This document shows, in pieces, positions 18,311 through 27,562 of a DNA stretch of 64,000 bases. Origin of the DNA: a virus. The stretch is from positions 1 through 64,000 of IMG/VR virus record IMGVR_UViG_3300006217_000017. One strand, 5' to 3'. The position numbers and the translations under genes are program-made. A model generated the notes under the pieces. It saw only the letters and a list, made by a program, of their open reading frames with translations, was not told the origin of the DNA and made no database searches. Position 1 is the first letter of the stretch. Every line of letters begins with the position of its first letter.

Positions 18311-19475
18311 TCATTTCTTATAATTTTCTTCCAAATACTTCCTATTTTCCTCCGAGCAATACTTATCCATGTAATAATCTCTATTCGGTATACCGATTTT
18401 CAGATTTCCATGCACTTTAAGCCATTCAAGAACAAACCAATAACCTAATCCGTCTTTGCTCGGTTGCCACATTCCGCTGTCGGAAAATTCGCCGCCACGA
18501 ATGACATAATCACATAGTTTTGGCTCTTGCTCGGAAAGTCTTACAAACCGCTGTTTGTCTTGTGTGATACCAAATCCGCAGAAGATACACCCAGTCCTCT
18601 TGCACCCTGTTGTTTCATACTGGCAGCCTCGGTAATCGCCAAGATAGTCATGTATGTTCATCTGCCCGTCAACACCATCATTTTTCACAACTACTTGACC
18701 GTATGCGTCTGCAATGGTAAGGTTGTATGTATGTATGTATGTATGTGAGGACATCTTGCTCTGTCCAAAATGACATAGGATTAGATGATTGCTGTTTCTT
18801 ATCGCCCCAAGCATTGCAACCGTATTTTAGCCACCGTTGCCGTCTCAACCTGCTTTCATCTGCCATTGTCGCAAGAATGATTTTCCTGCCGCTTTTCCTC
18901 TCATAATTCCTTGCAGGATTTTTCTTCATAACCTTGCAACATCTATCAGAAATATTGAATGGTGCGTCAAGCAGGAATTTGTATGCAGATACATCAAACT
19001 GACTTTTCGTGCCATCTTCAAGCGGTGCATAATGACCTTTTCCTAATATTCTGTCAATTCGGAACTTATACGAACCATCGCCACGCCTTAATCCAATTCG
19101 TGCCTCTTGAACCACTTGCGACACTTCCTTTCCGATAATCGGATACCCATACTTGATAATCACATCTCGGAAATTCATTGTCGGTCTAAGTTCTGTCACA
19201 TTCTCTTTTGACAATGCAAACTTCCTTACTGACGGATATTCTAAGCCGGTATTTACGAATACCGCTTCAATGTTCGGATAATCCTTTCTGACTATATCAA
19301 GCAAAACCGTGCTGTCCTTGCCGCCAGAAAAGCTGACATATACGCCATCTTCTCCGAATTCATCAATCCAACCTCTTATCCGTTTCCTTGTCATTTGAAT
19401 TTTGGCTTGCAGGGGCAAGGATTGCATTTGTTTTAGTTCCCATAATTCGTGTCTGTTTGCCATATCAGCCACCAA
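18311..19475 (-). pseudogene. PAPS-reductase-family (adenine-nucleotide alpha-hydrolase) gene split by a frameshift in a tetranucleotide repeat
   Basis: The N-terminal part carries the P-loop-like VSFSGGKDSTVLLD. The frame changes inside ACA(TACA)5. Removing one 4-nt unit joins ...WTEQDVLTYIHTY to NLTIADAYGQVV...GCKRTGCIFCGFG, giving about 386 aa. Confidence 0.8.
18724..18746. repeat. tetranucleotide simple sequence repeat, (TGTA)5TGT on the plus strand
   Basis: Read directly from the sequence. It lies exactly at the frame switch of the PAPS-reductase-like gene. Confidence 0.95.
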
Positions 19476-21465: not shown

Positions 21466-21792
21466 TTAAATATCCCCTATCTTTTCATCTAACCAATCCA
21501 CAAATTCACTTTCGCTATTCAATGCAGATTGTGGAATATCATATTCCCGTTGCCATAGCTCGCCACAGCAATCCCATTCGTTATACAAATAAACATTTCT
21601 TTCCTGCGGATTTACCGTTATCCAAAGCACTTCAATTTCGTTGTGGTTTATTGTTTTTACATAACCACTCATTCCATTTATTCCGTTACTTTCTCTGTAT
21701 TTGAAACCTAAGTTAATCAGAAATGCGCACTGCAAACAGAAGTTCAAATTATCTTTAAATATCCCCATTCCCTCAACCTCCCATAAAATCAA
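21466..21792 (-). CDS. hypothetical protein
   Basis: 108-aa ORF lying in series. Confidence 0.4.
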   Translation of the reverse strand: MILWEVEGMGIFKDNLNFCLQCAFLINLGFKYRESNGINGMSGYVKTINHNEIEVLWITVNPQERNVYLYNEWDCCGELWQREYDIPQSALNSESEFVDWLDEKIGDI

Positions 21793-22441
21793 ATAAATTC
21801 ATCTGTGCCAATTCTCTGTCAAGGCGTTCTTTTGACAGTTTGTAATAATGTTTATCAAGTTCAAATCCGACAAACTTGTGGTTGGTATTCCTGCAAGCGA
21901 TAAGGCTACTTGCAGAGCCAACATGAGTATCAAGGATAATATCTCCATCCTTGGCATATCTTGTTAAAATCCATTCGTATAGGGCGACGGGTTTCTGTGT
22001 GGCATGAATACGGTCTTTTTCGTTACTCATACCTATCCATTCTTTAGATGTTCCGTCTAAATTAGTCCATGCGTATTCGCACATTGAAAAACTCACATCT
22101 TCTGATATTTGAGGTTTTCTCCATATCAGAAAACACTTTGTAGGTGGTAATGAGAAATAATTTCCTCCCCACACAATAGCGTGTTTTGAAACTCTGAATA
22201 ATTCCTTGAAATATTCTGCAGACGTGGGGCTGTTATCCCAATATGCCTTTGGATATTCCGATTGTTTATCGCCTTTTCTCCTACCCATGCTATTATTGAT
22301 ATTTATTCCATACGGAGGGTCAACCACCGCTAAATCAAAATACTTATCATGGAATTGTTTCATTCCTATCATGCAGTCACAATTCACATAAATGCTTGTC
22401 GGGTGTTCTAAATCAAATTCTGTTCCACAAATGTTAATCAT
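21773..22441 (-). CDS. DNA methyltransferase, N6-adenine/N4-cytosine (beta class)
   Basis: DPPY motif (LAVVDPPYGI) comes first. ATQKPVALYEWIL and ILDTHVGSASS (the SAM-binding motif) follow. Confidence 0.85.
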   Translation of the reverse strand: MINICGTEFDLEHPTSIYVNCDCMIGMKQFHDKYFDLAVVDPPYGININNSMGRRKGDKQSEYPKAYWDNSPTSAEYFKELFRVSKHAIVWGGNYFSLPPTKCFLIWRKPQISEDVSFSMCEYAWTNLDGTSKEWIGMSNEKDRIHATQKPVALYEWILTRYAKDGDIILDTHVGSASSLIACRNTNHKFVGFELDKHYYKLSKERLDRELAQMNLFDFMGG

Positions 22442-22510
22442 TCTTTTTGTTGGAGTAAAGTATACTTTCAGTGGCTAGCCAAAACCTCCATTACCTCCAA
22501 TCTTGAAATT

Positions 22511-22726
22511 TTATTTAACTATATATTCCTCTAAAAGTCGTTCTCTCATATCATAAAAGTATTTTTCCTTACAATCGCTGCAACTGATATTTTCACAGTC
22601 ATTCTCTGGGTTTCCATTACCGCCATACGGGCAATATGCGTTTCCAAATGCCTATTTTCTTGCACCTATCAGTTCTAATATAAGATTTTCTATATTTTCA
22701 TTTGCTCTATCTCTTTTCTTTCCCAT
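22511..22726 (-). pseudogene. small Cys-rich ORF interrupted by an in-frame TAG
   Basis: Hand translation: MGKKRDRANENIENLILELIGARK*AFGNAYCPYGGNGNPENDCENISCSDCKEKYFYDMRERLLEEYIVK. The TAG is at 22652-22654. No start codon follows it. Confidence 0.4.
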
Positions 22727-22736
22727 CTTCTCACCC

Positions 22737-23186
22737 TCACTTCCTCGTCAATTCCTCATAGCACTTTTGAAACCTTATGAAATCCTCTGCATTGCCACCG
22801 TTGTCTGGATGGGCGTGTTTCATAGCGTATCGAACTGCGTCAACTGTATCTTTTGAAATTTGTGACACTCCCTGATAGCCATTTCCATACACATTCCGAT
22901 ATGCACCGATTAAAGATTTAAGCCGCATATTTTCCATAAGAAGTTCTGCGTTTCTATTCCTTAAACTCTCAGTTTCCGCATTTTCGCAATCTGAAATGCT
23001 TCTGTACATCTTAAAATTATTTCTGATTTCCTCGACTTGCTTTTTCAAAATCATGTTGTCAAATTTCAAGTCTTTATATTTTCTAATATGGTCTATCAAA
23101 AAACCAATCAGAAATATAATTCCGATTATTACTAAGTTCCAAATCATTTCATATCTCCAATCAGTTAAATGGAAGCTCCTCGTCAA
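22737..23186 (-). CDS. membrane-anchored protein with a C-terminal J-domain-like segment
   Basis: N-terminal TM segment (IWNLVIIGIIFLIGFLI), then a coiled-coil, then AVRYAMKHAHPDNGGNAEDFIRFQKCYEEL, which contains an HPD tripeptide. Confidence 0.55.
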   Translation of the reverse strand: MTRSFHLTDWRYEMIWNLVIIGIIFLIGFLIDHIRKYKDLKFDNMILKKQVEEIRNNFKMYRSISDCENAETESLRNRNAELLMENMRLKSLIGAYRNVYGNGYQGVSQISKDTVDAVRYAMKHAHPDNGGNAEDFIRFQKCYEELTRK

Positions 23187-26861: not shown

Positions 26862-27562
26862 TTAAAATGGCGTTAAACTTAATTCTGTTTCAAACCCTGC
26901 TGTCGCAAGTTCCACCTTAACATCTTCCCCAACAACTTCTTCTATTTGTTTCTTTGCGAATGAGCAATCAATACTATCCGAACTCATGTGGCACAATATT
27001 ACGGTTCTAAGGTCGCTTGTCATGTTCTCCTTAATGACTTTTTCAATCAGCGTGTCAAGCGAACAGTGACCTTTTATCTGATGTGTATATTTAGCTTGTC
27101 CTTTATCAACTAATTCCTTTTGGTGGTTGCACTCTACAATCATATCTGTAAGTCGGACATTCTTGAAGGAACACGGAAGATATTCAAAGTCCGTAGCATA
27201 CAAAATTCTGTGTCCAGCAACCGTTATGTAAAATCCATAGCAGGGCACTCCATCATGCGGCACTTTGAACGCCTGCACACCGAAACTGCCATATCTGATT
27301 TTGAGAGGGCAAGCCTTTGTTTCGTCAAATGGCTTGAAAACAGGTATTCCCATATTCAAAAAGTCTTTAACCGACTTTGAGTGGTCTCCTAACCATGTTC
27401 GTGAGAGACAACACAGCCAACAACATCAGATACATTGAAGTCAATTCCCCTAAGTATTTGCTTTCTTGCTAAACCCAAATCTAAGAGAAGTATCTTTCCG
27501 CCATTATCATATAAAGCGTAACTATTACCACTACTGCCAGTGCTGATACATCTAACGAACAT
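26862..27562 (-). pseudogene. metallo-beta-lactamase-fold hydrolase gene disrupted inside its HxHxDH motif
   Basis: The N-terminal part reads ...VVGCVVSHEHG then TAG. The C-terminal part continues in another frame as GDHSKSVKDFLNMGIPVF... Deleting the 5 nt TTAGG (27388-27392) restores SHEHGDHS. Confidence 0.7.

What the first reader, a model, noticed from the sequence alone, without database searches (positions are those of the whole stretch)
18311..19475. PAPS-reductase-like gene switched off by one extra unit of a tetranucleotide repeat (possible phase variation)
The 265-aa ORF 18678..19475 carries the PP-loop SFSGGKDS. The overlapping 167-aa ORF 18311..18814 carries a C-terminal GCKRTGCIFCGFG cluster. 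Together they are two halves of one gene. The frame changes exactly inside ACA(TACA)5 (plus strand 18724-18746). Deleting one 4-nt unit joins ...WTEQDVLTYIHTY to NLTIADAYGQVVVKNDG..., giving about 386 aa. The join reads like an uninterrupted domain. Tetranucleotide tracts are classical slipped-strand contingency switches in Haemophilus and Neisseria. They are rarely discussed for phage genes. The gene lies among methyltransferase and other DNA-metabolism genes, so on/off switching could modulate a DNA-modification or anti-defence function.
Basis: seen in the sequence. Interest (0 to 1): 0.62.

Follow-up and report, generated by a model that had tools for sequence, protein, structure and literature searches.

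The report
Repeat-tract on/off switch in phage gene
A gut phage's PAPS-reductase-like enzyme gene is knocked out of frame by one extra copy of a four-letter repeat, and related phages carry 2, 3, 4, 5 or 7 copies at the same spot, so the repeat behaves like the slippage "contingency switches" known from bacterial pathogens.

Summary
The minus-strand gene 19463..18311 is a single PAPS-reductase-family gene. It is split inside a perfect (ACAT)5ACA tract at 18724-18746. With four units it reads as a 382-aa protein, 93% identical over 99% of its length to many intact ~378-aa homologs.

Relatives carry 2, 3, 4, 5 or 7 units. Only 4 and 7 are in frame. Every off copy is otherwise intact. Off copies from diverged lineages still show dN/dS of 0.05-0.2 on both halves. 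A tree needs at least six changes of unit number. A 99% identical allele from another sample has four units. Several independent assemblies repeat the five-unit form, so it is not an assembly error.

Across 134 homologous loci, all seven frame changes lie in intervals that contain simple repeats: this tract three times and poly-G runs four times.

My best reading is a slipped-strand contingency switch, currently off, in an accessory Fe-S PP-loop enzyme that is not a true CysH. The tract is short, so switching may be slow.

Earlier notes of this scan report the same ACAT tract, and (ACAG)n tracts, in PAPS-reductase-like genes on other DNA.

The parts
18311..19463 (-). Whole PAPS-reductase-like gene, split into two frames in this genome. 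It reads as 382 aa with a 4-unit tract.
   Evidence: The joined product is 93% identical over 99% of its length to intact ~378-aa homologs. phrog_424 spans the junction.
18678..19463 (-). N-terminal ORF as it stands: 261 aa from ATG 19463. The last 18 residues (IQPYHCRRIRSSSCEK) are an out-of-frame tail. The premature stop is at 18678-18680.
   Evidence: PF01507 matches at 50.7 bits. The exact sequence is on 3 contigs in public collections (P0195).
18724..18746 (-). (ACAT)5ACA tract, the switch. In frame, four units encode T-Y-I-H-T-Y. Five units shift the downstream half by +1.
   Evidence: TRF, sequence, chance expectation 0. Relatives carry 2, 3, 4, 5 or 7 units.
18311..18723 (-). C-terminal half (NLTIADAYG... 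to the stop at 18311-18313), fully open in the +1 frame.
   Evidence: 137 open codons downstream of the tract. dN/dS is 0.06-0.15 against other off alleles.
19311..19334 (-). PP-loop motif SFSGGKDS (residues 44-51), the ATP pyrophosphatase signature.
   Evidence: Translation. The motif is invariant or nearly invariant in the alignments. All family matches centre on it.
18936..18941 (-). Cys-Cys pair (C175, C176), the first half of a probable CC...CxxC iron-sulfur ligand set. It lies in the N-terminal fragment.
   Evidence: Invariant in 46 homologs. The best structural match is the 4Fe-4S APS reductase 2goy. The ligand role is inferred.
18578..18589 (-). CxxC (C291-I-F-C294), the second half of the probable cluster site. 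It lies in the C-terminal fragment, so the frameshift separates it from the CC pair.
   Evidence: C291 and C294 are invariant in 46 homologs. Position read.

Best explanation
The (ACAT)n run is a hypermutable simple-sequence repeat inside the coding sequence. It gains or loses whole 4-nt units by slipped-strand mispairing during replication of the phage or prophage. The unit length is not a multiple of three, so the unit number sets the reading frame. Four units (or seven) give the full-length enzyme. Two, three or five units truncate it after the PMSFWTEQDVL helix.

The window's phage is a complete 89.8-kb genome with terminal repeats. It carries five units and is therefore off. It can make only a 261-aa fragment that keeps the PP-loop and the Cys-Cys pair. 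The fragment lacks the CxxC and the whole C-terminal domain.

The product is an accessory PP-loop, PAPS-reductase-fold enzyme with a probable Fe-S site. It is not a genuine CysH. Most likely it acts on nucleic acid, or otherwise meets host defences, early in infection. Loss and regain of the enzyme then lets the phage lineage hedge between hosts in which the activity helps and hosts in which it hurts.

Shown: the tract, the frame arithmetic, the recurrent independent length changes, purifying selection on both halves, and a near-identical on/off pair.

Inferred: the slippage mechanism, reversibility within a population and its rate, the enzyme's substrate, and the selective benefit.
For: 1. 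Unit number varies among relatives and predicts the frame without exception.
- 2 units, off: L197-200.
- 3 units, off: L070, L123, L171-182.
- 4 units, on: L001, L004, L165-167, L169, L185-191.
- 5 units, off: the window, L009, L163, L168, L170, L183-184.
- 7 units, in frame with an extra YIHT: L196.

2. In every off locus both halves are otherwise fully open.

3. Off-off pairs with the same unit number have dS of 0.6 to above 2 and dN/dS of 0.05-0.21 on both halves. The off state was therefore not inherited from one old pseudogene.

4. A maximum-likelihood tree of 750 nt of flanks, tract excluded, needs at least 6 changes of unit number and at least 5 on/off changes among 17 sequences.

5. 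L169 from another sample differs from the window by 4 mismatches plus the 4-nt gap over 846 bp, and it is on.

6. The 5-unit allele recurs in independent assemblies (P0195 on 3 contigs, P0196/L170, P0204 on 11 contigs).

7. Only 19 of 127 amino-acid-invariant degenerate codon columns are codon-invariant across 7 protein-ascertained loci, and none of the 6 Thr columns is. The tract codons are identical in 6 of the 7.

8. Among 160 homologous loci, the only adjacent tblastn HSPs in two frames lie at this tract.

9. Among 134 loci tested with anchor motifs, all 7 frame changes lie in intervals that contain an SSR: ACAT three times and poly-G four times.

10. There is a precedent. Homopolymer contingency loci in phage T2 toggle the DNA-modification gene agt between hosts with different type IV restriction systems (bioRxiv 10.1101/2025.10.21.683753).
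Against: - No read-level data.
- The tract is short. The on state (4 units) is below the cut-off of 5 or more units used for tetranucleotide phase-variable loci in PhasomeIt (PMC6321876). Switching may therefore be much slower than in classical loci.
- One 3-unit off allele is the consensus in 18 contigs from one study series. This argues against very fast switching, or for selection of off.
- Some lineages have interrupted, presumably stabilised, on alleles (L002, L192-195). The repeat is therefore not universally maintained.
- Synonymous conservation of the tract could come from slippage-driven homogenisation rather than selection.
- The enzyme's function is unknown.
Confidence: 0.7

Rival explanations
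1. A mutational hotspot with no switching role. The TYIHTY codons happen to form a slippery repeat. Slippage repeatedly kills a dispensable accessory gene, and each off copy is a young pseudogene on its way to decay.
For: - The tract is short.
- A 3-unit allele is fixed in 18 contigs of one study.
- Interrupted on alleles exist.
I saw one of them, an in-frame TAG in a small ORF.
Against: - No off copy carries a second lesion.
- Both halves show strong purifying selection.
- An in-frame 7-unit allele exists.
- The tract's synonymous sites are far more conserved than the rest of the gene.
- Different SSRs (poly-G at two regions, and (GA)n and (ACAG)n runs in in-frame copies) sit in homologs of the same family, and poly-G accounts for all other frameshifts seen. 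This looks like convergence on switchability.
Confidence: 0.2
2. Recoding. The 5-unit allele still yields full-length enzyme because the ribosome re-pairs peptidyl-tRNA(Tyr) from UAC to the identical UAC four bases downstream (a +4 hop), or because RNA polymerase slips by one unit.
For: In a tetranucleotide repeat the same codon recurs at +4, so re-pairing would be perfect. This is read directly from the sequence. Both halves are conserved.
Against: - 2- and 5-unit alleles need a shift in one direction and 3-unit alleles a shift in the other, so no single mechanism serves all.
- There is no stop or rare codon directly after the tract. The zero frame runs on for 18 codons.
- Conservation of both halves is explained just as well by recent descent from on alleles.
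Confidence: 0.05
3. The two fragments are made separately and assemble into an active split enzyme. The C-terminal ORF would start at the ATG just upstream of the tract (MSSHTYIHTYNL...).
For: The 5-unit frame offers an ATG at the right place. Gene callers call a 147-aa product, P0121.
Against: - There is no convincing Shine-Dalgarno sequence before that ATG.
- The 3-unit alleles offer only a TTG start.
- The break falls in a core helix of the PAPS-reductase fold, aligned with CysD 'PLSNWTELDIWQYIY' and modelled as helix 235-244.
- It separates the CC and CxxC halves of the probable cluster site.
Confidence: 0.03
4. An assembly or sequencing error. The real genome has four units.
For: Repeats are error-prone in some technologies. 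I could not inspect reads.
Against: - The same 5-unit allele appears in several independent assemblies from different sources and samples.
- 2-, 3- and 5-unit alleles recur in diverged lineages.
- A perfect 23-nt tetranucleotide run is well within short-read accuracy (general knowledge).
Confidence: 0.02

Closest known systems
Tetranucleotide contingency loci of Haemophilus influenzae, e.g. mod (AGTC)n (De Bolle et al. 2000, cited in PMC6321876) and lic1 (CAAT)n (from my own knowledge)
   Same: A perfect 4-nt repeat lies inside the reading frame. Gain or loss of units toggles translation on and off with a period of three units. Tract length is polymorphic among close relatives. Some of the genes affected are DNA-modification enzymes.
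   Different: Here the gene belongs to temperate phages of gut anaerobes, not to a bacterial pathogen's chromosome. The tract is much shorter (2-7 units, against typically more than 10 to about 40). The on length is 4 units. Switching rates have not been measured.
Phage contingency loci in T2/T4: homopolymer runs, e.g. in agt (Gomez, Barrick & Waters, bioRxiv 10.1101/2025.10.21.683753)
   Same: The locus is phage-encoded. A slippage-prone repeat in an accessory gene gives reversible frameshifts. The proposed logic is bet-hedging between hosts with different defences.
   Different: Those loci are single-base runs of 6 or more in virulent coliphages, shown experimentally. This one is a 4-nt unit in temperate gut phages, supported only by natural-population comparison. 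The enzyme's function is unknown.
Poly-G tracts in Campylobacter phage genes (Sorensen et al. 2021, recalled from my own knowledge, not read here)
   Same: Hypermutable repeats in phage genes create phenotypic diversity.
   Different: Those are homopolymers in receptor-binding proteins. Here the repeat is a tetranucleotide in an early-region enzyme.
Assimilatory APS/PAPS reductases (CysH; PDB 2goy, 1sur, 6vpu)
   Same: The fold and the PF01507 domain are shared. The conserved 'P-x-S-x-W-T-x-x-D-V/I-x-x-Y-I' helix is encoded partly by the tract. There is a CC...CxxC cysteine pattern as in 4Fe-4S APS reductases.
   Different: The protein scores far below the NCBIfam CysH cut-offs. It has no C-terminal ECGLH catalytic motif. 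It has a canonical SGGKDS PP-loop, an insert of about 50 residues and a C-terminal extension of about 90 residues. TM-score normalised to the target is only about 0.5.
DndC / SspD / BrxP: PAPS-reductase-like enzymes of DNA phosphorothioation and BREX type 4
   Same: All are PP-loop enzymes of the same superfamily that act on DNA, with cysteine-rich regions. There are weak PADLOC matches (BrxP 49.9 bits, SspD 30.8 bits).
   Different: The matches cover only about 40 residues around the PP-loop. No cysteine desulfurase or other Dnd/Ssp/BREX partner was found among the neighbours I annotated.

Membership tests
SSR-mediated contingency (phase-variable) locus | A perfect simple-sequence repeat, with a unit length not divisible by three, lies inside the reading frame. 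| tested here: met
   (ACAT)5ACA at 18724-18746, 100% matches.
SSR-mediated contingency (phase-variable) locus | Repeat number differs among close relatives, and the frame follows the repeat number. | tested here: met
   2, 3, 4, 5 and 7 units were found. Only 4 and 7 are in frame. A 99% identical allele has 4 units.
SSR-mediated contingency (phase-variable) locus | Off alleles are otherwise intact and the gene stays under selection, meaning repeated switching rather than decay. | tested here: met
   Both halves are open in all off loci. dN/dS is 0.05-0.21. At least 6 independent length changes are needed.
SSR-mediated contingency (phase-variable) locus | High-frequency, reversible switching within a clonal population. 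| not testable with these tools
SSR-mediated contingency (phase-variable) locus | Tract length reaches the lengths shown to vary in experiments (5 or more tetranucleotide units in PhasomeIt). | tested here: inconclusive
   The window has 5 units, but the on state has 4 and relatives range from 2 to 7 (PMC6321876).
Assimilatory PAPS/APS reductase (CysH), i.e. a sulfur-metabolism auxiliary gene | PF01507 PAPS_reduct domain. | tested here: met
   50.7 bits against a cut-off of 22.5. The best fold matches are 2goy, 6vpu and 1sur.
Assimilatory PAPS/APS reductase (CysH), i.e. a sulfur-metabolism auxiliary gene | Reaches the curated CysH family thresholds. | tested here: not met
   TIGR00434 scores 20.9 bits against 165.1. 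PRK02090 scores 29.7 against 154. TIGR02055 scores 17.3 against 235.3.
Assimilatory PAPS/APS reductase (CysH), i.e. a sulfur-metabolism auxiliary gene | C-terminal catalytic cysteine in the ECG[LI]H motif (the motif is recalled from my own knowledge). | tested here: not met
   No ECG motif occurs anywhere in the joined sequence (direct reading).
DndC / SspD / BrxP DNA-phosphorothioation enzymes | Full-length match to the family model, plus a cysteine desulfurase or other system partners nearby. | tested here: not met
   PADLOC matches cover only residues ~39-84. No such partner is among the neighbours.
phrog_424 (phage 'PAPS reductase') | Significant match over most of the protein. | tested here: met
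   E 1.5e-43, residues 11-327.

The most novel reading that the evidence does not exclude
PAPS-reductase-like genes of gut phages may be a family-wide target of repeat-driven bet-hedging. Different lineages appear to have evolved different slippery repeats at different sites of the same gene: (ACAT)n after the PMSFW helix, poly-G in the insert and before the WxP motif, and (ACAG)n or (GA)n elsewhere. The enzyme would then be a DNA-modification or anti-defence factor that is advantageous in some hosts and a liability in others, for instance where modification-dependent defences exist. The gene is widely annotated as the phage 'cysH' metabolic gene. On this reading it would be a switchable weapon in phage-host conflict.
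Probability: 0.35. Interest if true: 0.8.

Novelty: new member of a known kind. Interest (0 to 1): 0.6.

Why it matters
Repeat-driven contingency switches are textbook biology for bacterial pathogens. In phages they have only just been demonstrated, and only for single-base runs in laboratory coliphages. This locus gives natural-population evidence for a four-base switch in temperate phages of gut anaerobes. The evidence spans dozens of independent assemblies from mouse, rabbit and human gut, and the frame arithmetic is exact (2, 3 and 5 units off; 4 and 7 on).

It also bears on a practical matter. Phage 'PAPS reductase/cysH' is among the most often reported auxiliary metabolic genes in viromes, yet its function is unvalidated. 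This protein fails the CysH membership tests, and it is repeatedly switched off and on. That fits a conditional conflict function better than housekeeping sulfur metabolism. Gene-presence counts in viromes would overstate the activity, because about half of the tract-bearing copies I could examine are out of frame.

Tried and rejected
I did not try to reach reads another way.
- Megablast of 4 kb around the gene against the phage collection found no match.
- Pfam on the C-terminal ORF alone found nothing.
- A sequence search of the PDB with the family profile gave only a marginal CysD hit. It was useful only for aligning the tract-encoded helix.
- The IMG/VR pattern scan added only one locus. 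The genome and metagenome scans and the exact-protein look-ups were far more productive.
- P0073 (283 aa) looked like a truncated allele. It is only cut by a contig end.
- My first two attempts to detect frameshifts across all homologs were flawed: a PP-loop regex that was too strict and a mis-spaced WxP anchor. They were replaced by tblastn and a corrected anchor test.
- I considered whether the methyltransferase at 21773-22441 is also split. It is not. The ORF contains the DPPY motif and matches phrog_67 over residues 20-218.
- Programmed frameshifting, a split enzyme and assembly error were considered and rated low (see rivals).
- The literature searches found no paper on a repeat switch in a phage PAPS-reductase gene.

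Full report
**What is in the window**

On the minus strand, 19463..18311, lies one gene read in two frames.
- The N-terminal ORF runs from ATG 19463 to the stop at 18678-18680. It carries the PP-loop SFSGGKDS and matches PF01507 PAPS_reduct (50.7 bits, cut-off 22.5).
- The C-terminal part is open in the +1 frame down to 18311 and carries TGCKRTGCIFCGFG.
- The frames cross inside a perfect (ACAT)5ACA run at window 18724-18746. TRF gives 5.8 copies at 100% match.
- A 19-nt version of the run is expected 0.00 times in shuffled sequence. It is the only tetranucleotide run of four or more units in the 64 kb, and the window has no poly-G runs.

Read with four units, the gene gives a 382-aa protein.
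- It matches phrog_424 across the junction (residues 11-327, E 1.5e-43).
- It is 93% identical over 99% of its length to many intact proteins of about 378 aa.
- In those proteins the junction reads ...PMSFWTEQDVLTYIHTYNLTIADAYGQVVV....
- The tract itself encodes T-Y-I-H-T-Y. In the AlphaFold model of the intact homolog P0004 this is the end of helix 235-244. The helix aligns with 'PLSNWTELDIWQYIY' of CysD.

The window is part of a complete 89,785-bp virus record with direct terminal repeats. The gene sits in the early/replication region. Its neighbours include a DnaD-like loader, a primase-helicase, a DNA methyltransferase, SSB and a serine recombinase.

**The tract varies among relatives and the frame follows it**

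I collected relatives in four ways:
- protein-pattern scans of one genome per species and of IMG/VR;
- a DNA-pattern scan of metagenome contigs that accepts any length of three or more units;
- a search with the C-terminal ORF, which by its length window excludes intact proteins;
- exact-protein look-ups.

At the DNA level:

| Units | Frame | Loci |
|---|---|---|
| 2 | off | L197-200 (three studies) |
| 3 | off | L070, L123/L162, L171-178 (one allele, 18 contigs of one study series), L179-182 (10 contigs, several studies) |
| 4 | on | L001, L004, L165, L166, L167, L169, L185-188 (P0078, listed in 49 blocks of the collection), L189-191 (P0004, 116 blocks) |
| 4, with synonymous interruptions | on | L002, L192-195 |
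| 5 | off | the window, L170, L009, L163, L168, L183-184 (11 contigs) |
| 7 | on, with four extra residues (AYIHTYIHTYNL) | L196 |

No exception to the frame arithmetic was seen. Further C-terminal ORFs in the protein collection begin MDR[AT]RCP[HN]IHTYNL, which is the three-unit frame, or MSSHTYIHTYNL, which is the five-unit frame. Among the distinct tract-bearing alleles for which I have DNA, roughly half are off.

**The off state is recent and arose many times**

- In every off locus the upstream half (at least 221 codons) and the downstream half (at least 126 codons) are completely open. The tract is the only lesion.
- Nei-Gojobori estimates between off alleles with the same unit number give dS from 0.6 to above 2. 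dN/dS is 0.05-0.21 on both halves, the same as between on alleles. If the off state had been inherited from a common broken ancestor, the halves, and above all the untranslated C-terminal half, would have drifted.
- A maximum-likelihood tree of 750 nt of flanks, tract excluded, needs at least six changes of unit number and at least five on/off changes among 17 sequences.
- L169, from a different sample, differs from the window by four mismatches and the single 4-nt gap over 846 bp. It has four units. L170 is 98.9% identical and has five.

**It is not an assembly artefact**

The window's exact N-terminal ORF is on three contigs from two sources. A one-residue variant of it is on two Logan contigs. 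Five-unit alleles of other lineages recur in 11 contigs and in independent MAGs.

**The repeat is unusually well preserved**

Seven loci were found through their protein, not through the tract. Across them only 19 of 127 amino-acid-invariant degenerate codon columns keep the same codon, and none of the six invariant Thr columns does. The tract codons (ACA TAC ATA CAT ACA TAC) are identical in six of the seven, and the seventh differs at one base. This could reflect selection for the repeat, or homogenisation by slippage itself. Either reading implies an actively slipping tract. The preservation is not absolute. L002 and the P0085 lineage (ACATATATACATACATAT) have interrupted, presumably stabilised, on alleles. 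More distant homologs read QYIHENNL or LYIKENNL with no repeat.

**Frameshifts in this family coincide with repeats**

- tblastn of P0004 against all 160 homologous loci finds adjacent HSPs in two frames only in L009, L070 and L123, all at the ACAT tract. L010 and L140 simply carry two paralogs.
- I also compared the frames of up to five anchor motifs (PP-loop, CC, PMSFW, CxxC, WxP) in the 134 loci where at least four of them were found. Seven frame changes appeared. Each lies in an interval that holds an SSR: the ACAT tract three times, and a poly-G run four times (L051 G9, L057 G7, L064 G12, L065 G8).
- Other homologs carry in-frame G8-G11 runs, (GA)7-10 or (ACAG)4 in the gene.
- This agrees with earlier unchecked notes of this scan. 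They report the same ACAT tract at 3.5 units in another genome (e1-2909759) and long (ACAG)n or (GACA)n tracts in PAPS-reductase-like genes of other gut phages. I treat those notes as leads. My own test covers only the loci named above.

**What the protein is**

- It belongs to the PAPS-reductase / PP-loop ATP-pyrophosphatase superfamily.
- The best structural matches of the model (mean pLDDT 76) are APS and PAPS reductases: 2goy, 6vpu and 1sur, with E about 2e-5 and target-normalised TM about 0.5.
- It is not a CysH by the tests I could apply. It scores far below the curated thresholds (20.9 against 165 bits; 29.7 against 154). It lacks an ECGLH-type C-terminal catalytic motif (direct reading; the motif is from my own knowledge).
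- It has a canonical SGGKDS loop and invariant cysteines C175, C176, C291 and C294. These resemble the CC...CxxC ligands of the 4Fe-4S APS reductases. That role is inferred.
- The frameshift separates the CC pair from the CxxC, so the 261-aa fragment is very unlikely to be active.
- Matches to BrxP and SspD cover only the PP-loop. No desulfurase partner is nearby.
- Its neighbours differ between phages: GIY-YIG-like protein and methyltransferase here; SNF2-methyltransferase in L170; radical SAM, PP2C and kinase around P0004; a Gad2-family gene near L197. It therefore behaves as a mobile accessory gene.

**Interpretation**

The best-supported reading is a slipped-strand contingency switch that is off in this genome (confidence 0.7).

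The closest bacterial parallels are the tetranucleotide loci of Haemophilus. The closest phage parallel is the homopolymer contingency locus in T2 agt, which lets that phage alternate between hosts with TgvAB and hosts with McrA/BC (bioRxiv 10.1101/2025.10.21.683753).

There are three main reservations.
- The tract is short. PhasomeIt uses a cut-off of five or more units (PMC6321876).
- One three-unit allele is stably the consensus across 18 contigs of one study.

Together these suggest that switching may be slow. It may be closer to recurrent evolutionary toggling than to classical high-frequency phase variation.

The main rival is a non-adaptive hotspot in a dispensable gene (0.2). It is disfavoured by the intact, selected halves, the in-frame seven-unit allele, the preserved repeat, and the different repeats in homologs. 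Recoding (0.05), a split enzyme (0.03) and assembly error (0.02) are minor.

**Novelty and value**

I found no publication on a repeat switch in a phage PAPS-reductase-like gene. The kind of mechanism is known, so this is a new member of a known kind. It is of moderate to good interest for two reasons.
- It gives exact natural-population evidence for a four-base phage contingency locus.
- It questions the routine reading of this gene as a sulfur-metabolism auxiliary gene.

Noticed in passing
L051 3907-3915; L057; L064 3895-3906; L065 3891-3898 (off). L036 3913-3921; L058, L080 and L127 3880-3887 (on).: Distant homologs of the same gene carry a poly-G run (G7-G12) that encodes the GGG of 'C[IM]GGG.YD..G.WKP'. 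In four loci the run puts the C-terminal end out of frame. This is a second, independent repeat hotspot in the family.
   Followed up: partly
L117, L118, L122, L125 (IMG/VR human-gut contigs), e.g. L118 3379-3453: These phages hold many G8-G11 runs spread over several genes. In L118 and L125 two poly-G runs inside the PAPS-reductase-like gene are both shifted, so the short stretch between them is in another frame while both flanks share one frame.
   Followed up: partly
window 22442-22740, minus strand (TAG near 22652): A small ORF reads MGKKRDRANENIENLILELIGARK, then TAG, then AFGNAYCPYGGNGNPENDCENISCSDCKEKYFYDMRERLLEEYIVK in the same frame. I did not check that note's TGA (24550) or its 5-nt insertion (27388-27392).
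   Followed up: no
L197 2448-2984: A gene matching Pfam Gad2 (PF26128, an anti-Gabija family) lies about 1 kb downstream of the 2-unit (off) PAPS-reductase-like gene. This hints that the gene sits among anti-defence genes in some phages.
   Followed up: no
L189-L191: The commonest intact allele (P0004) lies between a radical-SAM gene, a PP2C-like phosphatase and a Ser/Thr kinase-like gene. This context is quite different from the window's, so the gene moves as an accessory unit.
   Followed up: no
L164 446-600: A 20-nt (ACAT)5 run is followed in frame by unrelated sequence (TYIHTYIETPLKSAWNNVQNK...). This may be a recombination breakpoint at the tract.
   Followed up: no
L169 1205-2215 (P0201): The near-identical 4-unit allele has an internal deletion of about 45 residues between 'YPNI' and 'YPII' in the N-terminal half. 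The frame is on, but the enzyme may be damaged, or the contig may be mis-assembled.
   Followed up: no
L010 and L140: Two PAPS-reductase-like paralogs lie in tandem in the same phage region.
   Followed up: no
L008, L070, and P0078 (named Phocaeicola sartorii by NCBI), compared with L001, L004, L009: Tract-bearing copies at 60-90% protein identity occur in records assigned to Bacteroidota (Phocaeicola, Muribaculaceae) and to Lachnospiraceae. This suggests gene exchange between phages of different phyla, or binning errors.
   Followed up: no
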